In this document: piece after piece, positions 7,690 to 22,090 of the stretch | How positions within the stretch are numbered: position 1 is the stretch's first letter | Layout: each line of letters starts with the position of its first letter | IMG/VR virus record: IMGVR_UViG_2868597578_000002 | DNA length: 64,000 nt | Reading direction: 5' to 3' (one strand) | DNA from: a virus | Taxonomy: Duplodnaviria; Heunggongvirae; Uroviricota; Caudoviricetes | Program-made: the position numbers and the translations under genes | Notes under the pieces: model-generated | What the model was told of the DNA's origin: nothing | Database searches by the model: none | Seen by the model: the letters and a program-made list of their open reading frames with translations, nothing else

Positions 7690-8158
7690 GCCGCATTAGG
7701 ATATAAAGCGGGAATCCTCGGCAATTAAATTACCGAGATGAAAGCGACTAATAAATAAAAGTATCGCTTGCGTTTTTTTTAAAAAAATATATCCAAACAA
7801 GCAAATTTTTCAGCATATTATATATGAGCATAAAAGAGACGTTCTCTTACCTTAAGAATAGGTTGCTCATTACAATATAAAGCAGCGACCTGAAGCAAGT
7901 ATGCAAAAAAGAAATAGTCTCTGACTGTTACACCTTCTGTTTAAAACTTCAGGTCCATAGGAGCCTCGTCGTGTCCTGCTGTGGCATGTCTGCAGCCGGG
8001 CCTCTGTCCAGGGATATTTCTGGTGCATACGCTTGCATATGCGTTGGTTGTATTTCTCGCAGATAAAAGTAGTTGTTAGTTTACCTGGGTGTCTTCGGAT
8101 GCTAGGTGATTCAATTGCCGAGAGGTTCACGTCCCGGGTTCAAGTCCTGAATGCGGTG
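7690..8158 (+). pseudogene. tRNA relic split by IS200/IS605-type element; D- and anticodon arms lost
   Basis: 5' part GCCGCAT-TAG (7690-7699) pairs with ATGCGGT-G (8151-8158); GTCCCGGGTTCAAGTCCTG T-arm follows the element directly. Confidence 0.7.
7700..8130 (+). mobile_element. Non-autonomous IS200/IS605-type element, copy 1 (431 bp)
   Basis: Near-identical to 18560-18986; inserted 3' of TTAG, ends TCAC, subterminal hairpins CTCGGCAAT/ATTACCGAG and CTAGGTGAT/ATTGCCGAG; no TSD, no transposase. Confidence 0.85.
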
Positions 8159-8160
8159 TT

Positions 8161-8251
8161 GCAGATGTAAAACAGTGTTCTAGTCAGTATAGCTTTGGCA
8201 GTCGGTTCAATTCCGTCAGCGGGTAGCTCCTGCGAAAATTTTTGCATCTGC
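8161..8251 (+). ncRNA. Candidate structured RNA containing a T-loop motif
   Basis: 12-bp closing stem GCAGATGTAAAA/TTTTGCATCTGC encloses GTCGGTTCAATTCCGTC; no anticodon arm recognisable. Confidence 0.4.
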
Positions 8252-13702: not shown

Positions 13703-15457
13703 ATGATATTTGATGTGCTAACAGAACCATGGATGGGAGTGATTGATAAAGAAACAGGAGAGGTGCTTAAAGTCGGATTGAGAGATTATATCGTCAACGC
13801 TCATATGTATAAATGCAGTGCTGAAAGCAAAGACTTTGCTATTATCAGAAGACTACAGCAGAGATTAGCTGAAGCAGTTGTTATTGATATTTATGGAAGA
13901 GCCGTAAACGATGAGCTAATGTCGGTCTTTAATAATGGCCGGTTTGATGCTGACAAAATTGATGCATATTTTGATGAGTGTATAAAAAACGGAACATCAT
14001 TTGACCTGTTTGATGAAGAAAAGCCATTCATGCAGGTTGATGCAAAAACTGCAGAAAGTGTATTCAAGGAAAATAGTATTACATCAGTTTCTTCAATTAA
14101 TGCAAAGCAATGTGGGGGAAATAATAAAGTATTTTTTCAGCATGTAGATGTTAATAATTACATTGAAAATATTGGAGGAGTAGATAATAGAGATTCATAT
14201 TATGATGAAGCACAAATTGACGGGCGACATATTGAACTTGCAAATAGTGTAAAATTTGACGAATATATGAATTTAATTTTAATGGAGAGCTGCATTGCTG
14301 GTATGAGAGGTCAGTCATATGTTACAGGACTTATTTGTATTCCAAGTCCTCCTGCCATGTATCATTTTGATGCGGCGGAAGATAAAAGCTTATTTTCAAG
14401 TATTTTATTAAACATCGCTAATGATGATTCCGGATGTGATGACGGTATGCCAGTTTGGAAGTGGGATTCATACAACTATGCGGTAAATTCAATGCTGCAA
14501 AAGAAGTATCAGGTTCCCCTGCTTGAAGGTATGTTTTTCCCGGTAACTTATCTGCGTCCTGATTACAGCTCTATTGATATGGAAAAGAAGACTATCAAGA
14601 GAATTTATAAATCAATAATGCTGTTCAAAGCACCAGATGGTTCCGATATGATGAAAATAGCAAGACAATCCTGGCTGATAAATAAAGAGCCATCGGTTAC
14701 GGTTATTCTTAAGTCAAAAGACAAAGACGTGATGACCGGTATGGAGTTTACAAATTCAAATGAAGTATGGATGGGGATTAAGGCATATGCAAATATCTTT
14801 GGTAACCATTCTGCTCCGCGAGTGCTAAGGAGTTCATTGTATGATGCATTATTTGCAGCAGACTTAAGGCTGAAAGTCAGAAGGGGAGAAGCCGATGGAG
14901 ATGAGACTGTAAAGACTGAAATGACGGCATACTATGTTTCTAAGGATAGGGGCTCGTTTCTATCACAGGGGAAATATCCGTGTATGCTTCCGGAGTGTAT
15001 TTTGGATGACCAGTTAACAAAACAGGCTACGGATATGTTTATAGATATGATAGGTATGGAGTATGTACCATATGGAAGTAATAAGAATAAAGCAGGTATT
15101 GCAAAACGCTTGCAGCAGAGAATTGGTGATATTGAAACTGCTTTGTCTTCAATTGGAGAACAGCTCTTTACGAAGAATAAATTTGACCTGGTGACCGTTC
15201 GGAATACTACGATGAACAGGTATTGGAGATATTGCGAAAATCTATTTAAAAATTTCTTCATTCCGGATATCGATGGTATAAAAAAGTCAGCATACTGTAA
15301 CCAAGAGGAATACATGGAAGCATTAAGAAGCATAGTAGATAAGTATGTTGATAATGCATCAGGATATGCAAACAGGTTAATATACAGTATTCCGATTCCG
15401 AAAGGCAAGAGCATTGCTGTGAGAAAAGCATTAGCAAAGAACGGAGGTAAAAAATGA
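13703..15457 (+). CDS. cas8e: Type I-E Cascade large subunit Cas8e (Cse1/CasA), divergent
   Basis: N-terminal FDVLTEPWMGV...GLRDYIVNAH, FDLFDEEKPFMQ; first gene of the cas operon. Confidence 0.8.
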   Translation: MIFDVLTEPWMGVIDKETGEVLKVGLRDYIVNAHMYKCSAESKDFAIIRRLQQRLAEAVVIDIYGRAVNDELMSVFNNGRFDADKIDAYFDECIKNGTSFDLFDEEKPFMQVDAKTAESVFKENSITSVSSINAKQCGGNNKVFFQHVDVNNYIENIGGVDNRDSYYDEAQIDGRHIELANSVKFDEYMNLILMESCIAGMRGQSYVTGLICIPSPPAMYHFDAAEDKSLFSSILLNIANDDSGCDDGMPVWKWDSYNYAVNSMLQKKYQVPLLEGMFFPVTYLRPDYSSIDMEKKTIKRIYKSIMLFKAPDGSDMMKIARQSWLINKEPSVTVILKSKDKDVMTGMEFTNSNEVWMGIKAYANIFGNHSAPRVLRSSLYDALFAADLRLKVRRGEADGDETVKTEMTAYYVSKDRGSFLSQGKYPCMLPECILDDQLTKQATDMFIDMIGMEYVPYGSNKNKAGIAKRLQQRIGDIETALSSIGEQLFTKNKFDLVTVRNTTMNRYWRYCENLFKNFFIPDIDGIKKSAYCNQEEYMEALRSIVDKYVDNASGYANRLIYSIPIPKGKSIAVRKALAKNGGKK

Positions 15458-15966
15458 ATTATAAAGAAACCCGCGAACAGGTTGATATGATTCTGGAACG
15501 TGTAAAGGCATTGGATAATGCAAAAAAGATACAGCTGCGCCGAGCGTATAATATCAGTTTTGACGAATTGCGAGGATTCCAGCAGATAACGATTAAAAAT
15601 ATCCTGAAAGATACCCCATGGTGTTATGCCGGATATATGAGGGATTTTATCGTTGATATGTGCGGCATATATGTGCAGCAGGAATGCAAAGAAGGAGACC
15701 CGTTTGAATATTACCTGCATGAAATATATGATGAGGGTTCTGCGGCAGTACAGCAAAAAATCGGTTATCTCGTTGATGAGGATGAGAAAGCAATCTTAAT
15801 AAGATACATAAAAAGATATATAAAAATGTGTAAAAAGGGCACTAAAATTGACACAGCAAAACTGATGACGGATATTCTGTGCTGGCCATATTACAACACA
15901 AGAAATGAGTGGATTGATGTAATTGCCGGCGTTAAAAAAATTGATAAGAAAAAGGAGAAAAAATAA
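15454..15966 (+). CDS. cas11: Type I-E small subunit Cas11 (Cse2/CasB), divergent
   Basis: 170 aa helical protein between cas8e and cas7; LRRA..., L..DIL.W...NEW pattern. Confidence 0.7.
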   Translation: MNYKETREQVDMILERVKALDNAKKIQLRRAYNISFDELRGFQQITIKNILKDTPWCYAGYMRDFIVDMCGIYVQQECKEGDPFEYYLHEIYDEGSAAVQQKIGYLVDEDEKAILIRYIKRYIKMCKKGTKIDTAKLMTDILCWPYYNTRNEWIDVIAGVKKIDKKKEKK

Positions 15967-17246
15967 TGAGCAAAAGAATGTTGGTTGAAGTACACGCAGG
16001 AAAAAGATATGGCATTTCACGTTTAAACTGTGATGGAGCAGGACAGGTGAAAGATGTAATTATTGATAATGAAAGATACAACAGAATTTCGTCACAGTCA
16101 AAGAAAAAAGTATGGCGTGAAAATTTAGAAAAACGCCTGGAGCGATTAAATGGTGACAGCATGGAACATGTATACAGAACCAGAGCAATGAAAGATATCT
16201 TTAAAAAAGAATTCTTAAGAAAAGAAGCAGGCTTGTATGCTGAAAATGCTGACGCTATGGCTGAATATATTGTCAAAAGTATTTTGTCCTGCTCTCTGGA
16301 GGAAAAAAATGGATTTGATGTTACAAATCAGGTTTTGATTGTCACAAAGTATGACGTTGAAGATATCGTCGAAGTGTTCTGTGATGTCATCAAGACACCC
16401 GATGACTGGGAACAAGCCAAGAAAGAGGCAGCAGAAAAGGAAAAAGAAAATGATAAGAAAAAAGGCAGTAAGGCAAAAAACAGTGCGAAGAATTCGGCCT
16501 CCCAGAGAATCATTTCAGCATTGAAAGCAAAACTGCCATTAAGAAAATATGGTGTTGAGTGTTCATTGTTTGGCAGAATGGCGACGTCTGGTGTAATGGA
16601 AACTGTTGAAAGTGCTATGTGTGTTAATCATAGTTATTCATTAGGGAAAGCCACACTGGACAGCGATTACTATATCGTTGTTGATAACTATCTGTCAGCA
16701 ATGGCAAGCGAAACTGAAAGTGGACAGAGCGGTGCCGGATACTTGGATGAAAAAGAATTTTCCAGTCATGTGTACTATGAATATGCAAGCATTGATGTGG
16801 GGAAATTTTATGACAACCTGACTAAAGGGGTAGACATGTCAGATGAAAAGAATGTACAGCGTATTAAGACCGTGATTATTGAGGCTGTCAAGTGTGTGGT
16901 TAATGATATTGCTACATCTGCTCCGAGCGGCGGCCAAAATTCGTTTGCGTCACGTCCTGACCCGGTTGGTGTATATATTACAATCAAGGAAGACGGAGAA
17001 GGACGTACGGCTGATACATACTGTATTAAAGAAATGGTTAAAAATGGAAGTGCAGCCGCTAAGACTGAAGCTGATAAGTTCCTGAATGCTATGAACGAAT
17101 TTACAAGCGGAGATTTTGCAGATGACTCGGATTACCTGGCAAGAATTTACACCGGAGAATCTCCGGAAATGTTAGATGGTGCTGAGCATATGTCATGGAA
17201 AGAAGCTGTTAAAAAAGTAGGGGATATTATTGATGAAAAATTCTAA
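15966..17246 (+). CDS. cas7: Type I-E Cas7 (Cse4/CasC)
   Basis: LNCDGAGQVK...RISSQSKKKVWRE, LFGRMA, HSYS, DSDYYIVVD, GAGYL, YYEYASID. Confidence 0.92.
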   Translation: MSKRMLVEVHAGKRYGISRLNCDGAGQVKDVIIDNERYNRISSQSKKKVWRENLEKRLERLNGDSMEHVYRTRAMKDIFKKEFLRKEAGLYAENADAMAEYIVKSILSCSLEEKNGFDVTNQVLIVTKYDVEDIVEVFCDVIKTPDDWEQAKKEAAEKEKENDKKKGSKAKNSAKNSASQRIISALKAKLPLRKYGVECSLFGRMATSGVMETVESAMCVNHSYSLGKATLDSDYYIVVDNYLSAMASETESGQSGAGYLDEKEFSSHVYYEYASIDVGKFYDNLTKGVDMSDEKNVQRIKTVIIEAVKCVVNDIATSAPSGGQNSFASRPDPVGVYITIKEDGEGRTADTYCIKEMVKNGSAAAKTEADKFLNAMNEFTSGDFADDSDYLARIYTGESPEMLDGAEHMSWKEAVKKVGDIIDEKF

Positions 17247-17781
17247 AAAATTAAAGCTGGTCTGTTCCGCCATGCTCCAGTCATGGCGAATCAGAAGCCT
17301 TGGGCCATCTCAGAGATACACTGAGCTGGCTCCAACGAAAAGCGGTATCATAGGAATGATTGCCTGTGCATTAGGGTACGAGAGGAACGATAAAAGGATT
17401 GATGTCTTGGCAAATTCCACAGAGCTGTATCTTGATGTTAAAAATTCCGGGTCAATGCTGGAATCGGCAACCATTAATTCAATTGATACGCTGATTGATT
17501 ACCAGACAGTAATGGATAAAGAAAAGGGAATGCCAACGGCAAATGGCGGCCGTTTGTATTCAGCAACGCTGATTGATAAAGAATATCTTGTCTGCCGCAG
17601 GTTTGTGCTATATCTGATTTCCGATGAGGAAACACTAAATAAAATCCAGGCGGCATTAAAGGCTCCTGTATGGCAGTATTATCTCGGAAGCAAATGCTGC
17701 ATTCCGGCAGAACCTGTCAGCCAGGGAATTTCAGGGATTAAGGAGGGCGAAATTAATGATTATCAGCACATTCGAGTGTAA
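17230..17781 (+). CDS. cas5: Type I-E Cas5 (CasD)
   Basis: LQSW...RYTELAPTKSGIIGMIACALG; YLGSKCCIPAEPV. Confidence 0.92.
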   Translation: MMKNSKKLKLVCSAMLQSWRIRSLGPSQRYTELAPTKSGIIGMIACALGYERNDKRIDVLANSTELYLDVKNSGSMLESATINSIDTLIDYQTVMDKEKGMPTANGGRLYSATLIDKEYLVCRRFVLYLISDEETLNKIQAALKAPVWQYYLGSKCCIPAEPVSQGISGIKEGEINDYQHIRV

Positions 17782-18340
17782 AAGCTTTATGCAGAATTCA
17801 GATATCATACATAAAATTATTCAATCAATGTTTCACTGTAACCGTGCATACCATAATGTCCTGTATATGGTAATTGGAAAAAATCTGATAATACAGTCTG
17901 ACATTGAACCGTATGAAATCCCAGACTCATTACGATTAATGAATTCAAGGAACTGTGATGGTATGGCCGCTAACATTAATGCCGGTGACGTTGTTAAAAT
18001 TTTCGCTATGTATGAACCAACAAAAAAACAGGCCAGAATTGGAAAGCGGTCATCAAATATCCTGATTGCAGATGAAAACGACAGAAAAGAATGGGTAAAA
18101 AGAAAATTTATAAATGCCGGCAATGTGATTGCTATTAATGAATTGTCAAAAAATAAACGCCAGGTCACCAAAAGTTGCGGTGATTCTCATCCGGTAAGCG
18201 TATTCGGATACGAATTCCTGCTGCGTGTCAGCGATGCGAACGCATTACGGAACCTGATTAAAAATGGAGTGGGCCGGTCTAAATCATACGGAGCCGGAAT
18301 GTCTCTTGTGATGGGAGTTGAAAAGCAAAAAATCATTTAA
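17756..18340 (+). CDS. cas6e: Type I-E Cas6e (Cse3/CasE) crRNA endonuclease
   Basis: HKIIQSMF; C-terminal Gly-rich loop GVGRSKSYGAGM. Confidence 0.88.
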   Translation: MIISTFECKSFMQNSDIIHKIIQSMFHCNRAYHNVLYMVIGKNLIIQSDIEPYEIPDSLRLMNSRNCDGMAANINAGDVVKIFAMYEPTKKQARIGKRSSNILIADENDRKEWVKRKFINAGNVIAINELSKNKRQVTKSCGDSHPVSVFGYEFLLRVSDANALRNLIKNGVGRSKSYGAGMSLVMGVEKQKII

Positions 18341-18400
18341 AAAAATGAAAATGCGGCGGATTTTTCGGCATATTGAAGATGTGGATGAGGCAAGAACAAC

Positions 18401-18460
18401 ATTTGTGCAAATTGCACAACGAAGTGTTTGAGACGGCTGAAAGCCGCATAAACACTAAGT
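18401..18460 (+). promoter_or_regulatory. CRISPR leader 1, conserved 60-bp block
   Basis: 55/60 identical to 22031-22090; TTGTGCA/TGCACAA palindrome and AGTGTTT..CGGC-TGAAA-GCCG..AAACACT hairpin; GCATATTG at 18368. Confidence 0.85.
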
Positions 18461-18559
18461 GTCTGCCTCTCGCAGGAGGGGATGAATCGACCATTGTAGC
18501 CTGCGGCCGACCGGTTCTGATGTCTGCCCCTCGTATGAGGGGATGAATCATTAGATTAG

Positions 18560-18986
18560 GATATAAAGCGGGAATCCTCGGCAATTAAATTACCGAGATA
18601 AAAGCGACTAATAAATAAAAGTATCGCTTGCGATTTTTTAAAAAAATATATCCAAACAAGCAAATTTTTCAGCATATTATATATGAGCATAAAAGAGACG
18701 TTCTCTTACCTTAAGAATAGGTTGCTCATTACAATATAAAGCAGCGGCCTGAAGCAAGTATGCAGAAAAGAAATAGTCTCTGACTGTTGCACCTTCTGTT
18801 TAAAGCTTCAGGCCCATAGGAGCCTCGCCGTGTCCTGTTGTGGCATGTCTGCAGCCGGGCCTCTGTCCAGGGATATTTCTGGTGCATACGCTTGCATATG
18901 CGTTGGTTGTATTTCTCGCAGATAAAAGTAGTTGTTTTACCTGGGTGTCTTCGGATGCTCGGTGATTCAATTGCCGAGAGGTTCAC
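18560..18986 (+). mobile_element. Non-autonomous IS200/IS605-type element, copy 2 (427 bp), inside CRISPR spacer 2
   Basis: Flanks TTAGATTAG (9 nt) + GAGGAAACATGAGTGTGCCACTC (23 nt) rejoin to 32 nt; left hairpin 18577-18597 preceded by AATC, right hairpin preceded by GATG, end TCAC. Confidence 0.9.
18684..18986 (+). ncRNA. Structured RNA carried by the IS200/IS605-type element (omega-RNA-like candidate)
   Basis: Downstream of internal GCATATTA (18672); ATGAGCA/TGCTCAT junction, GGCCTGAAGC/GCTTCAGGCC stem with compensatory G18747:C18813 versus A7888:T7954 in copy 1, cUUCGg hairpin 18943-18960. Confidence 0.65.
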
Positions 18987-19491
18987 GAGGAAACATGAGT
19001 GTGCCACTCGTCTGCCCCTCGTATGAGGGGATGAATCTATATATGACCAAAAAAATAAAACAAAAAAAAGTCTGTCCCTCGCAGGAGGGGATGAATCCGC
19101 GTTGGTTATCGGGTATGATGCATATAAAGCCGTCTGCTCCTCGCAGGAGGGGATGAATCGTTGCTTCGTCAATAAGCGTATCCAGTTCATCAGTCTGCCC
19201 CTCGCAGGAGGGGATGAATCGATTGGAAACCGGGACGAACACTTGCCGCTCAAGTCTGTCCCTCACAGGAGGGGGTGAATCGGGCAGTAAAATCAATTAT
19301 ACGGCTATTACAGGCGTCTGCCCCTCGTATGAGGGGATGAATCGAACCGGAGCGTCAGCATCTCATACCAGGACAAGTCTGCCCTTCGTATGAGGGGATT
19401 GCTCGGCAAACAAACTTTCATCCGAATTGTATGAAATGTCTGCCCCTCTCCGGAGGGGATATAACGTTATTTTTTTTTCGGAGGAACAATA

Positions 19492-21945
19492 ATGGACATA
19501 ACAAACATATGGGCAAAAACAGCCCCAAAAAAATCTTTAATCAATCACATGCTGGAGACCGGAATAGTCGCAGAGTGCCTGACTGATACGAATGGTATTT
19601 ACTATCCGGTGCTGAACAGGCTGTCTGAAATAACTGGTTGTGATAGTGATACGTTGTTAGCAAAAATCATGTTTATATGTGCCATTCACGACATAGGAAA
19701 AACACACCCGACATTTCAAGGCCGTGATGAGGAAACGCTGGAAATATTAAAACATGAGGGCTTAAATCAAGTGTCATTTGACACTCGGTTTAGACATGAA
19801 CAGTATGGTGCGAATATCTTTGACAAATTGAGCGCTGAAGATGTTGATATAAAAAATTCAGATATTATATCTCAAATTATCAGGATGCATCACCAAAAAG
19901 AACAGAAAAAAAATTCTGATATTGATATTATAAAAATTGATGATAAAGAAAAGGCAAAAAAATGGATGCATATCCAGAATGAGATTTATGATTATATAAA
20001 GAATGTTTTTCAATTTGACAATCTAAATTTGATAAACAAAAATATCAGCAAGTCAGAACTGTTTGTAGTACAAAATGCAATCTTAGGTATAATGATTACC
20101 TCGGATTGGATAGCATCAAACAACTACGTGTTCGACAATCAATCGTATGAAAATATAGACGAATTTTTGAAATCAAGAAAGATTCAGGCGCTGAAATTCC
20201 TGAACAATGAGGGGATGATACGGCAGCAAATTCCAGTGATGCAGGATTTCAGGAGTGCATTTGGATTCAATGGAAGACCGGTACAAAATGATATTGAAAA
20301 AATTGTACATAAAAATGACATTAAATGTATGCTGATTGAATCCGATTGCGGTTCTGGAAAAACCGAGGCGGCGTTGTATGCAGCCGCCGTTCTGGGCAAT
20401 CGTTCTGGGTTATCTGGAATATATATGGGGCTACCGACCGGCGTTTCTGCAGAAGCGATTCAAGACCGTGTGGATGAATTTTTAACTTCACACGGTATGC
20501 GAAACACGAAGCTGTATACGTCAAAATCAATGCTATTAAGGGAGCCAGATAAAAAGCCTGTATGGACGGATATGTCTCGTCAGAGATTATTGGCATCATC
20601 TGCTGTTGGTACGGTTGACCAGGTAATGACTGCTGCCAGGCTGGTGAGGTTTGAGAGTGTCCGAATGGATGGTTTGGCGTCAAAGGTGCTGATTATTGAC
20701 GAAATTCACGCGTATGACGCATATATGCTTGCCGTGATAAAGGATTTGCTGAAGATATGTAAAGAACTTGGTGTTCCAGTCATTATGTTGTCGGCTACAT
20801 TACCAATATCTACAAAAAAAGATTTGCTGGGCGCGCTTGGCAATGGAGATATAGAATTGCATAACGGATACCCGGTGATATCGTATGTTACAAAAGATGG
20901 AAGTGTGCATGAGCACGTATCACACCAATATATGCCTGATAAAAAAATCTCGTGCGAGCTGCTGTCGATATTAAACGACAATGATAAAATTGCACGATAT
21001 GCAGTTGATGCAGTCAAAGATGGAGGGTGTGAATGCGTGATTATGAATACAGTCGCAGATGCAATCTGCGTATATGACAAAATCAAAAAAAACAAAAAGA
21101 ATGACTGTAAAATAATTCTATATCATTCCAGAATGACTATAAATGCACGAGATGAGACGAGTCGGAAGATTTTGGCAATGTGTGGTAAAAATAGAACTGA
21201 AAGACCTGAACGTGTCATTATTGTTGGAACGCAGGTTTTAGAGCAATCCCTTGATATTGATGTTGATTATATGATAACTGCAATCTGTCCGATTGACTTG
21301 TTATTCCAGAGAATAGGACGATATCACAGACATGGGGATGCGGGGACTATCAGGGAACATGTAGTTGTTGCGAATACTGTCCAGGTGTTAATTCCGTCCG
21401 ATTTGTCCAGTTATGGCGGGACTGAGTATGTTTATAAAAAATGTTATCTTGACGCAACGATTGACGCAATTCGGGAACATAATGGTCATCTATTGATACC
21501 GTCAGGTATGCCTGACATGATTAATTATGTATACAGTCATGCCTCAATTGATGTGCGTGTTCGTCAAATTATAGACGAGGCAAATTCAGATAACGGAAAT
21601 ATCAAAATTGAAAACGGGTTTGAAATATACACAAGGAGAAACAACCTGACAGATAAAAACCTGAATGTCCGTTTGTCAAATACCGATGAGGTGATGACTC
21701 AAATTGCGATATTGAATGATGCGGAAATTGAAACGTTAGGACAGAGCAGTGAGGCAGACATAGAGTTGTTTAAAGGTCGTGTGGTAGCTGTCAGGGAGTC
21801 AAAAGTTAAAAATTTTAAGAATTTCTGCAAGCCTGAAACAGGAATCTTTAAAGATGTACAAATATACACAAAAAATGATTGTGTGAGCGAAGGCAAAGAA
21901 ATTGTTATAGACGATGAATACGGAATGAGGATTGAAAAAATATAA
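19492..21945 (+). CDS. cas3: Cas3 HD nuclease-helicase
   Basis: WAKT...NHMLE, HDIGK, RHEQYG, MHHQ, SDWIAS, GSGKTEAAL, DEIHAYD, SATLP, EQSLDID, QRIGRYHRH. Confidence 0.97.
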   Translation: MDITNIWAKTAPKKSLINHMLETGIVAECLTDTNGIYYPVLNRLSEITGCDSDTLLAKIMFICAIHDIGKTHPTFQGRDEETLEILKHEGLNQVSFDTRFRHEQYGANIFDKLSAEDVDIKNSDIISQIIRMHHQKEQKKNSDIDIIKIDDKEKAKKWMHIQNEIYDYIKNVFQFDNLNLINKNISKSELFVVQNAILGIMITSDWIASNNYVFDNQSYENIDEFLKSRKIQALKFLNNEGMIRQQIPVMQDFRSAFGFNGRPVQNDIEKIVHKNDIKCMLIESDCGSGKTEAALYAAAVLGNRSGLSGIYMGLPTGVSAEAIQDRVDEFLTSHGMRNTKLYTSKSMLLREPDKKPVWTDMSRQRLLASSAVGTVDQVMTAARLVRFESVRMDGLASKVLIIDEIHAYDAYMLAVIKDLLKICKELGVPVIMLSATLPISTKKDLLGALGNGDIELHNGYPVISYVTKDGSVHEHVSHQYMPDKKISCELLSILNDNDKIARYAVDAVKDGGCECVIMNTVADAICVYDKIKKNKKNDCKIILYHSRMTINARDETSRKILAMCGKNRTERPERVIIVGTQVLEQSLDIDVDYMITAICPIDLLFQRIGRYHRHGDAGTIREHVVVANTVQVLIPSDLSSYGGTEYVYKKCYLDATIDAIREHNGHLLIPSGMPDMINYVYSHASIDVRVRQIIDEANSDNGNIKIENGFEIYTRRNNLTDKNLNVRLSNTDEVMTQIAILNDAEIETLGQSSEADIELFKGRVVAVRESKVKNFKNFCKPETGIFKDVQIYTKNDCVSEGKEIVIDDEYGMRIEKI

Positions 21946-22030: not shown

Positions 22031-22090
22031 ATTTGTGCAAATTGCACAACGAGGTGTTTAAGGCGGCTGAAAGCCGCATAAACATTGAGT
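22031..22090 (+). promoter_or_regulatory. CRISPR leader 2, conserved 60-bp block
   Basis: Duplicate of leader 1; GCATATTA at 21985. Confidence 0.85.

What the first reader, a model, noticed from the sequence alone, without database searches (positions are those of the whole stretch)
18522..19038. An IS200/IS605 RNA cassette inside a CRISPR spacer could turn that spacer into a TnpB-style guide
Seen: the 427-bp element splits spacer 2 into 9 + 23 nt (32 nt restored), with no TSD. Its ends obey the Y1 transposase guide rule (guide n1,n2,n4 pair with cleavage site c2,c1,c4): AATC with target TTAG on the left, GATG with TCAC on the right. It has no ORF but has a promoter and a ~300-nt folded RNA (compensatory pair between copies, cUUCGg loop) ending at the right end. 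Known: IS605 right ends encode the TnpB omega-RNA, whose guide is the downstream flank and whose TAM equals the insertion motif; Cas12 arose from TnpB. Inference: the transcript is scaffold + 23-nt spacer remnant + repeat 3, which Cas6e would cut to give a defined 3' end; the original invader carries exactly TTAG + guide, so a TnpB supplied in trans would cut the same protospacer. This is a natural omega-RNA/CRISPR hybrid. No tnpA or tnpB was recognised in this window.
Basis: partly seen in the sequence, partly recalled or inferred. Interest (0 to 1): 0.9.

Follow-up and report, generated by a model that had tools for sequence, protein, structure and literature searches.

The report
Gene-less guide-RNA transposon inside CRISPR spacer
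A 427-base, protein-less copy of an IS200/IS605-type jumping gene, carrying a promoter and what is most likely a TnpB guide-RNA scaffold, has landed in the second spacer of a plasmid-borne CRISPR array; this kind of element is already known, and its position in the spacer looks accidental rather than a new hybrid immune device.

Summary
A 427-bp ORF-less element (18560-18986) splits spacer 2 of a type I-E array into 10+23 nt, after TTAG and without a target duplication. The same insertion occurs in at least three other public samples.

It is mobile. A second copy lies at 7700-8130, and further copies sit at other TTAG sites in related contigs. Its two ends match autonomous IS605-type elements (Y1 TnpA plus TnpB) that also insert after TTAG and end in TCAC, and the Y1 guide/cleavage pairing rule holds at both ends.

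It carries the replicon's own promoter motif and a folded RNA with two compensatory base-pair changes. One public contig shows a roughly 2.04-kb long form with the same left end and the same RNA tail, but with 1708 nt in place of 93 nt. That interior could not be read, so a tnpB gene there remains an inference.

Protein-less IS200/IS605 derivatives that keep omega RNAs are already described (PMC10055086). This scan also noted gene-less omega-RNA transposons before on other DNA (e1-2880692).

The spacer remnant would indeed be the guide, and the invader would indeed carry TTAG plus target. But every insertion of such an element has that property. No tnpA or tnpB lies in the window, and nothing points to selection for a hybrid. 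Verdict: a new member of a known kind, of modest interest.

The parts
13703..18340 (+). Type I-E effector genes cse1, cse2, cas7e, cas5e and cas6e. No cas1 or cas2 is adjacent.
   Evidence: Pfam hits CRISPR_Cse1, CRISPR_Cse2 (weak), Cas_CT1975, Cas_Cas5d and CRISPR_assoc
18364..18459 (+). Promoter motif of array 1 (TTCGGCATATTG, 18364-18375) and the conserved leader (18401-18459).
   Evidence: Motif scan; the leader is 92% identical to the leader of array 2 at 22031 (family D3)
18460..19465 (+). CRISPR array 1: 10 repeats and 9 spacers, transcribed on the + strand. The last two repeats are degenerate.
   Evidence: Repeat family D1, period 60-62 except 488
18550..18559 (+). Left piece of spacer 2 (ATTAGATTAG). 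It ends in the target and presumed TAM, TTAG.
   Evidence: Direct reading; TTAG precedes the left end at every site examined
18560..18986 (+). The 427-bp ORF-less IS200/IS605-type element (PATE/MITE), in the same orientation as array transcription.
18560..18598 (+). Left end: 17-nt linker with guide tetranucleotide AATC (18573-18576), then an imperfect hairpin (18577-18597).
   Evidence: 85-88% identical to the left ends of the autonomous elements L004 and L026, and closest to L029
18668..18679 (+). Replicon-type promoter motif TTCAGCATATTA inside the element. The transcription start is inferred near 18688.
   Evidence: 23 matches in the window against 0.92 expected, including both CRISPR leaders and both element copies
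18684..18986 (+). Folded RNA of about 300 nt, the candidate omega-RNA scaffold. 18732-18986 is shared with the 2.04-kb long form; 18922-18931 is the ATAAAAGTAG motif shared with the tnpB tails.
   Evidence: Fold z = -4.5; 12 of 16 variable pairs stay paired and 2 are compensatory; long form; tail homology
18879..18915 (+). Terminator-like hairpin with a weak T tract inside the RNA. If it works as a terminator, transcripts stop before the guide.
   Evidence: the stem is kept by the compensatory change 18884/18901
18954..18986 (+). Right end: guide GATG (18954-18957), hairpin (18958-18978) and tail AGGTTCAC ending in the cleavage site TCAC.
   Evidence: Homologous right ends in L004, L026, L028-L030, L041, C. 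perfringens and Halanaerobiales
18987..19009 (+). Right piece of spacer 2 (23 nt). By position it is the guide of any omega RNA that reads through the right end.
   Evidence: Direct reading; the rule comes from PMC8612924 and PMC10055086
19010..19037 (+). Repeat 3, identical to repeat 2 over these 28 nt, with an intact Cas6e-type hairpin.
7700..8130 (+). Second copy of the element (431 bp) in the tRNA cluster, after GCCGCATTAG and before a tRNA T-arm/acceptor remnant.
19492..21945 (+). cas3
   Evidence: Pfam Cas3_HD, DEAD and Cas3-like_C_2

Best explanation
The insert is a non-autonomous, protein-less derivative (PATE/MITE) of an IS605-group element of the IS200/IS605 family.

Shown: it has subterminal hairpins and no inverted repeats. 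It inserts 3' of TTAG without a duplication and ends in TCAC. Its ends are homologous to autonomous tnpA+tnpB elements. It occurs at six or more different sites on related gut replicons. The spacer-2 insertion is fixed in every sample in which this cas locus was seen.

Inferred: a Y1 TnpA of an L026/L029-type element moves it in trans as single-stranded DNA. It arose from a ~2.04-kb long form by loss of about 1.7 kb (presumably tnpB), which fused a replicon-type promoter to the 3' non-coding tail. That tail is the omega-RNA scaffold. Transcripts that run through the right end take the adjacent 16-23 nt as guide. A TnpB supplied by a long-form copy would then cut TTAG-flanked empty sites and so help keep or spread the element.

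Landing in spacer 2 is an accident of a TTAG inside that spacer. It destroys the spacer for Cascade. Downstream spacers can still be made by read-through or from the element's own promoter. The remnant-as-guide match to the original invader is an automatic by-product, not an evolved function.
For: Array geometry and a restored 33-nt spacer. Further copies at 97-99% identity, each at a different site: 7700-8130 in the window, L008 and L009 (full length), L007 and L040 (contigs that start inside the element); left flanks, where present, end in TTAG. Autonomous relatives with the same ends: L026 has Y1_Tnp (E 4e-40) and OrfB_IS605 TnpB, with TTAG| on the left and TTCAC| on the right; L028-L030 and L041 are similar. 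The Y1 guide rule is met at both ends (direct reading). The last ~65 nt align with the tail after tnpB, including ATAAAAGTAG, which is invariant at nucleotide level in four elements, and that tail carries covarying stems. Long form: contig record 17 of run X2 matches 18577-18638 and 18732-18993 at about 91% identity, with 1708 nt between. Promoter motif enriched 25-fold in the window. Structure: z = -4.5 and two compensatory pairs. PATEs that encode omega RNAs used in trans are described in PMC10055086. Left ends of the L026 and L029 types co-occur in the same runs (table 7).
Against: No tnpB or tnpA lies in the 64-kb window. The only TnpB found on a related contig (L007, 561 aa) has unrelated ends and an unrelated tail. 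The 230 nt upstream of the shared tail show no similarity to any retrieved tnpB element. Relative to the L026-type tail the element lacks about 40 nt, including the partner strand of one conserved stem. There is no Rfam match. A terminator-like hairpin lies 80 nt before the right end. Transcription has not been demonstrated.
Confidence: 0.7

Rival explanations
1. One reading: a working omega-RNA/CRISPR hybrid. In this view a scaffold + spacer-remnant + repeat-3 transcript is trimmed by Cas6e and lets a TnpB supplied in trans cut the same invader that spacer 2 once targeted, so the insertion converts rather than destroys the memory.
For: The geometry is right. The element points the same way as the array, TTAG sits directly 5' of the 23-nt remnant in the restored spacer, and repeat 3 is intact. 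The insertion is retained in every sample seen. The TAM-equals-target-site rule is published (PMC8612924, PMC10055086).
Against: The same property holds for every copy at every site, and five or more copies lie outside CRISPR. No TnpB lies in the window. No protospacer was found in IMG/VR, PLSDB or INPHARED. The array lacks cas1/cas2, so fixation of the insertion needs no selection. TnpB guides need no defined 3' cut. An internal terminator-like site exists.
Confidence: 0.06
2. A purely DNA-level parasite whose RNA is not a working guide RNA. The promoter and folded region would be a decaying relic of the parent's 3' tail, or a promoter cassette that merely avoids polar effects. Transcripts would end at the internal hairpin, and no TnpB would use them.
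For: Terminator-like hairpin at 18879-18906. About 40 nt of the conserved L026-type tail are missing. There is no Rfam match. No cognate TnpB was retrieved. Most of the single-sided changes seen in stems are transitions, a share of which keep pairing even without selection.
Against: Two fully compensatory changes in separate helices. The promoter is kept intact in every full-length copy. The tail is kept at about 91% in the long form.
Confidence: 0.2
3. A miniature IStron: a self-splicing group I intron with IS605 ends that splices itself out of the pre-crRNA and the tRNA precursor, restoring both.
For: Both window copies lie inside RNA genes and in the sense orientation. ORF-less IStron derivatives are known (10.1101/2023.11.20.567912).
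Against: No group I intron or any other Rfam family matches even at E up to 1. The upstream exon ends in G and the element ends in C, not the U and G that group I splicing requires. Other copies are intergenic. About 35 nt of the interrupted tRNA core are missing, so splicing could not restore it.
Confidence: 0.02

Closest known systems
PATEs (palindrome-associated transposable elements) of IS200/IS605 that keep an omega RNA, e.g. those of Geobacillus stearothermophilus (Meers et al. 2023, PMC10055086)
   Same: They have no protein gene and keep only the transposon ends plus the right-end RNA. They are mobilised and served in trans, and the guide is the flank.
   Different: This element carries a promoter of its host replicon's private type. 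It has a longer RNA (about 300 nt), sits on a gut megaplasmid-like replicon, and lies inside a CRISPR spacer.
IS605-group elements with TnpA(Y1)+TnpB+omega RNA: IS608 (TTAC/TCAA) and ISDra2 (TTGAT) (PMC8612924); here the relatives L026, L028-L030 and L041
   Same: Subterminal hairpins, insertion 3' of a tetranucleotide without a duplication, the guide/cleavage-site pairing rule, and an RNA tail at the right end.
   Different: No tnpA or tnpB is present. The target is TTAG and the end is TCAC. Only the ends and the last ~65 nt are alignable with these relatives.
TranC / type V-U transposon-CRISPR intermediates (as summarised in PMC13565253)
   Same: A TnpB-type scaffold RNA lies physically next to CRISPR repeat-spacer units.
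   Different: There is no TnpB-like effector at the locus. The repeats belong to a complete type I-E system with its own Cas6e. It is a single insertion, not a scaffold leading an array, and there is no split into tracrRNA and crRNA.
IStrons and their ORF-less derivatives (10.1101/2023.11.20.567912)
   Same: IS605-type ends around a structured RNA, and insertion in the sense orientation in transcribed DNA.
   Different: There is no group I intron signature, and the boundary nucleotides are incompatible with splicing.

Membership tests
IS200/IS605 family, non-autonomous (PATE) | Subterminal imperfect hairpins at both ends and no terminal inverted repeats | tested here: met
   Hairpins at 18577-18597 and 18958-18978 share the same stem (CTCGG/CCGAG)
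IS200/IS605 family, non-autonomous (PATE) | Insertion 3' of a fixed tetra- or pentanucleotide, with no target-site duplication | tested here: met
   TTAG precedes the left end at all MITE sites and all autonomous relatives. The restored spacer is 33 nt with no duplication (loose ends)
IS200/IS605 family, non-autonomous (PATE) | A tetranucleotide 5' of each hairpin pairs with the cleavage site (the IS608 rule) | tested here: met
   AATC pairs with TTAG and GATG with TCAC at positions n1-c2, n2-c1 and n4-c4 (direct reading). The same holds in L004 and L026
IS200/IS605 family, non-autonomous (PATE) | Ends homologous to an autonomous element that encodes a Y1 (HUH) transposase | tested here: met
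   L026 has Y1_Tnp at E 4e-40 and the same left- and right-end sequences
IS200/IS605 family, non-autonomous (PATE) | No transposase or other protein gene | tested here: met
   No TnpA or TnpB similarity in any frame
TnpB omega RNA | A homologous RNA lies at the 3' end of a tnpB gene and runs into the right end | tested here: inconclusive
   The last ~65 nt align with the tail after tnpB in four elements. The long form has the 255-nt tail behind 1708 unread nt
TnpB omega RNA | Conserved secondary structure | tested here: met
   z = -4.5, two compensatory pairs, and 12 of 16 variable pairs stay paired. The sequences are few and closely related
TnpB omega RNA | Transcribed through the right end into the flank | tested here: inconclusive
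   A promoter motif is present. Contigs from an RNA library cover 18569-18808 only and cannot prove transcription. There is an internal terminator-like hairpin
TnpB omega RNA | Binds a TnpB and directs TAM-dependent cleavage | not testable with these tools
   Needs biochemistry or a plasmid-interference assay
Transposon-CRISPR intermediate (TranC-like) | A TnpB/Cas12-like effector gene linked to the scaffold and the array | tested here: not met
   No TnpB-like ORF in 64 kb by HMM or phmmer
Group I intron / IStron | A group I ribozyme core, a U before the 5' splice site and a terminal G | tested here: not met
   No Rfam hit; the boundaries are G| and C|

The most novel reading that the evidence does not exclude
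The element's RNA, loaded into a TnpB from a long-form copy on the same or a co-resident replicon, really uses the 23-nt remnant of spacer 2. It would then cut any DNA carrying TTAG plus that sequence. Two kinds of DNA qualify: the original invader, and rival plasmids of this family that still carry the intact spacer. In the second case the element would drive itself into their CRISPR arrays and disable that spacer. This would be a natural case of a TnpB guide RNA fused to a CRISPR spacer-repeat unit, the kind of raw material from which type V arrays are thought to have arisen.
Probability: 0.07. Interest if true: 0.7.

Novelty: new member of a known kind. Interest (0 to 1): 0.3.

Why it matters
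It documents a TTAG-targeting IS605 lineage that spans Clostridia and Halanaerobiales. The lineage runs from 1.9-kb autonomous elements through this 427-bp RNA-only derivative down to 47-bp single-hairpin stubs. The RNA-only derivative has acquired the private promoter type of a gut megaplasmid-like replicon.

The insertion shows concretely how a TnpB-type scaffold can come to lie directly upstream of a spacer-repeat unit. That is a useful illustration for ideas on how type V CRISPR systems began.

As found here, though, it is most simply a spacer knocked out by a selfish element. For annotation: spacer 2 of this array should be treated as disrupted, and the roughly 300-nt RNA should be treated as a candidate omega RNA.

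Tried and rejected
- **Whole genome:** not held, so the replicon could not be searched for tnpB.
- **Rfam, 17500-20000, E up to 1:** only a chance NsiR1 hit in cas3.
- **Exact-pattern scans of IMG/VR** for the right end, the left end, the restored spacer junction and a 20-mer conserved between the element and the long form: 0 hits each.
- **PLSDB and INPHARED blastn with the element:** only the left end of L004.
- **Restored 33-mer against PLSDB and INPHARED:** chance-level hits only.
- **Hunt for the long form:**
  - Pattern search in 401 Clostridia genomes.
  - BLAST of the RNA in 401 genomes of G029's family. It gave only right-end stubs and one probable chance hit, L034.
  - Antisense-ORF trick in the protein collection. 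It found another short copy, L040.
  - Profile search of 1.84 billion representatives, then look-ups of the 481-aa and 485-aa hits. These gave a relative without the RNA tail (L041) and an unrelated element (L042).
- **Walking upstream from the window:** failed, because contigs break 32 nt before the first gene.
- **The 561-aa TnpB on related contig L007 and its relatives L031 and L032:** different ends and an unrelated 3' tail, so this is not the cognate nuclease.
- **Rho-independent terminator near the left end (18603-18640):** weak (-6.3 kcal/mol, z = -1.05), so not claimed.
- **Read laying:**
  - No contig skips the whole element, so no empty allele was seen.
  - An RNA-library contig covers 18569-18808, but contigs cannot show transcription or ends.
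- **Structural comparison with the L026-type tail:** homology only in the last ~65 nt.
- **Group I intron / IStron reading:** rejected on the boundaries and on Rfam.

Full report
**Context.** The window carries a type I-E effector operon (cse1, cse2, cas7e, cas5e, cas6e; 13703-18340), a leader and array 1, then cas3 (19492-21945) and a second leader and array. No cas1 or cas2 is adjacent. It also carries a block of 25 tRNA genes. No whole genome is held for it. Earlier notes of this scan describe the replicon as a large conjugative, plasmid-like element of a gut Firmicute with its own sigma factor and a private promoter motif (e1-1870501, e1-5412209). I checked the motif myself: TTYNKCATATTR occurs 23 times against 0.92 expected, including in front of both CRISPR leaders.

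**The observation.**
- Array 1 has ten repeats with a 60-62 nt period, except one 488-nt interval between repeats 2 and 3. The excess is 427 nt.
- Reading the sequence, repeat 2 ends at 18549 and is followed by ATTAGATTAG. The element runs from 18560 to 18986. After it come 23 nt and then repeat 3, at 19010.
- Removing the element restores a 33-nt spacer (32 nt if the repeat is counted as 29 nt), with no duplicated bases.
- The identical junction is present in Logan contigs of two other samples that encode the same Cas6e (L005, L006). It is also in a 499-nt contig of run X1 that spans 18556-19050.
- No contig that skips the element was seen anywhere.

**It is a mobile element.**
- A second copy lies at 7700-8130, 96.8% identical over 431 nt. 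It follows GCCGCATTAG in a tRNA remnant.
- Further copies at 97-99% identity occur in related metagenomic contigs: L008 (intergenic, after TTTAG), L009 (same left flank as the tRNA copy, different right flank), L007 and L040 (other right flanks).
- Every left flank ends in TTAG and every copy ends in TCAC. The base after TCAC varies (G, G, G, T, C, A).

**Family.**
- The first 47 nt match the left end of an IS in a human-faecal contig, L004. That IS has a truncated tnpA, a 418-aa tnpB and a right end of the same type.
- A complete 1.93-kb copy is in genome G029 (L026): TTAG|, a Y1_Tnp transposase (E 4e-40), an OrfB_IS605 TnpB, and a right end ending TTCAC|.
- Three more relatives (TnpB 77, 60 and 56% identical; L028-L030), and L041, show the same TTTAG| left end and TTCAC| right end. 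The left end of L029 is the closest to this element.
- The four bases 5' of each hairpin fit the IS608 pairing rule. AATC pairs with TTAG on the left and GATG with TCAC on the right, in this element and in the autonomous relatives.
- The right-end hairpin and tail are conserved as far away as Clostridium perfringens and Halanaerobiales. There they occur as 47-bp single-hairpin stubs bounded by TTTAG| and TTCAC|.
- The window itself has no TnpA or TnpB by tblastn, by a profile HMM of four TnpBs, or by phmmer with a second TnpB type and with TnpA.

**The RNA.**
- *Promoter:* inside the element lies TTCAGCATATTA (18668-18679), a perfect copy of the replicon's promoter motif. It is present in every full-length copy.
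- *Fold:* the sequence from about 18684 to the right end folds well (z = -4.5 for the element plus flank).
- *Covariation:* I aligned the copies, and added variants rebuilt from the difference table. Sixteen predicted pairs vary, and twelve stay paired. Two changes are fully compensatory and sit in separate helices: 18747/18813 in the tRNA copy and 18884/18901 in the long form. The sequences are few and closely related, so this is moderate evidence only.
- *Homology to tnpB tails:* the last ~65 nt align with the tail that follows tnpB in L026-L030. The alignment includes ATAAAAGTAG (18922-18931), which in those elements overlaps the last tnpB codons and is invariant at nucleotide level, as well as GGTGTC and GATGCTCGG. 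About 40 nt are missing in between. That tail in the autonomous elements is itself a structured RNA with seven covarying pairs reaching into the tnpB coding region, as expected of an omega RNA.
- *No further homology:* the 230 nt further upstream in the element resemble nothing in those relatives. No Rfam family matches.

**A long form.**
- Laying public contigs on 18300-19200 showed one 2148-nt contig (run X2, record 17). It matches 18577-18638 and 18732-18993 (23 differences in 262 nt), with 1708 other letters in place of the 93 nt at 18639-18731.
- This is an element of about 2.04 kb with this element's own left end, including the part not shared with L026, and its own RNA tail. The short element looks like an internal-deletion derivative of it.
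- I could not read the 1708 letters. The size fits a promoter plus a tnpB of roughly 450-500 codons.
- An earlier, unchecked note of this scan (e1-1865277) describes a 2.1-kb TnpB-only, TTAG-associated IS on a gut conjugative element. It shares 16 of 120 short words with 18690-18940.
- Another unchecked note places a TnpB-only element about 59.5 kb upstream on this same replicon (e1-1870508). It shared no words with this RNA.
- All my attempts to fetch a long form failed.
- A 561-aa TnpB-only IS on related contig L007 has different ends and an unrelated tail, so it is not the partner.

**Mechanism.** The best reading is a PATE, an ORF-less IS200/IS605 derivative. A Y1 TnpA moves it in trans, and it keeps a promoter and the parent's right-end RNA. 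Meers et al. state that PATEs "often encode omega RNAs" that TnpB from other elements must act on in trans (PMC10055086). Under the published rules (PMC8612924, PMC10055086), a transcript through the right end takes the flank as guide, and the TAM equals the TnpA target.

The guide would be the 23-nt remnant. The restored spacer, and hence the original protospacer, carries TTAG directly 5' of it on the guide-identical strand. But this holds for every insertion of such an element. Its normal meaning is cleavage of the empty site, which favours retention or homing.

Several points argue against a selected hybrid:
- Five or more copies lie outside CRISPR.
- No TnpB has been demonstrated on the replicon.
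- No protospacer was found.
- A terminator-like hairpin lies at 18879-18906, before the right end.
- A 3' cut by Cas6e is not required for TnpB guides.
- An adaptation-less array cannot lose or replace the damaged spacer, so persistence of the insertion needs no benefit.

For the CRISPR system itself, spacer 2 is lost. A Cas6e-cut unit would be about 430 nt too long for Cascade. Spacers 3-9 can still be expressed by read-through or from the element's own promoter.

**Rivals.** A dead relic RNA (0.2) cannot be excluded without RNA data. An IStron-like self-splicing element is rejected on three grounds: no ribozyme match, the wrong boundary nucleotides, and an unrestorable tRNA.

**Novelty and score.** The element is a new member of a known kind. 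The placement in a spacer is a neat illustration of how a TnpB scaffold can come to sit upstream of a spacer-repeat unit (compare the TranC intermediates, PMC13565253). The evidence favours accident, hence modest interest.

Noticed in passing
window 7690-8158; L009:140-600: The tRNA-cluster copy sits after position 10 of a tRNA whose acceptor halves still pair. About 35 nt of the D and anticodon arms are missing to the right of the element. In L009 the same left flank is joined to a quite different right flank. This suggests deletions next to the right end, or recombination between copies.
   Followed up: partly
L007:7500-7860; L031:820-1160; L032:300-500: On related contigs a private promoter, a CRISPR-leader-like sequence (ending CACATAAACACTAAG, as in the window's leaders) and a single repeat are followed within a few bases by a 2.1-kb TnpB-only IS (TnpB 561 aa, cluster of 1585 sequences). 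In L032 the same IS lies beside a tRNA instead, so the two are separable. This is a second IS605-type element sitting in a leader-proximal CRISPR position.
   Followed up: partly
L031:2990-3060; L032:2330-2400: The 3' tail of that 561-aa TnpB element carries the small GGTAACGACTCC...GGAGTTATCA hairpin element in opposite orientations in the two contigs. This is the hairpin-repeat family that earlier notes describe on this replicon.
   Followed up: no
L011-L014 (Halanaerobiales); L010 (C. perfringens): In the Halanaerobiales loci, 47-bp single-hairpin elements are bounded by TTTAG| and AGGTTCAC|. Their right-end hairpin is almost identical to that of the gut element, across distant Firmicute orders. 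In C. perfringens (L010) only this right-end hairpin and tail were recognised.
   Followed up: partly
window, 23 sites (e.g. 2323, 12512, 18364, 21981, 27373, 44043): The promoter motif TTYNKCATATTR occurs 23 times against 0.92 expected. It lies in front of both CRISPR leaders, the cas operon region and many genes.
   Followed up: partly
L041:1421-2872: A relative IS in which the 481-aa TnpB reading frame runs through the right-end hairpin and stops only 6 nt before the element's end.
   Followed up: no
window 8160-8235: A tRNA-like stretch with a GGTTCAATTCC T-loop lies between the element and tRNA-Ser. ARAGORN does not call it.
   Followed up: no
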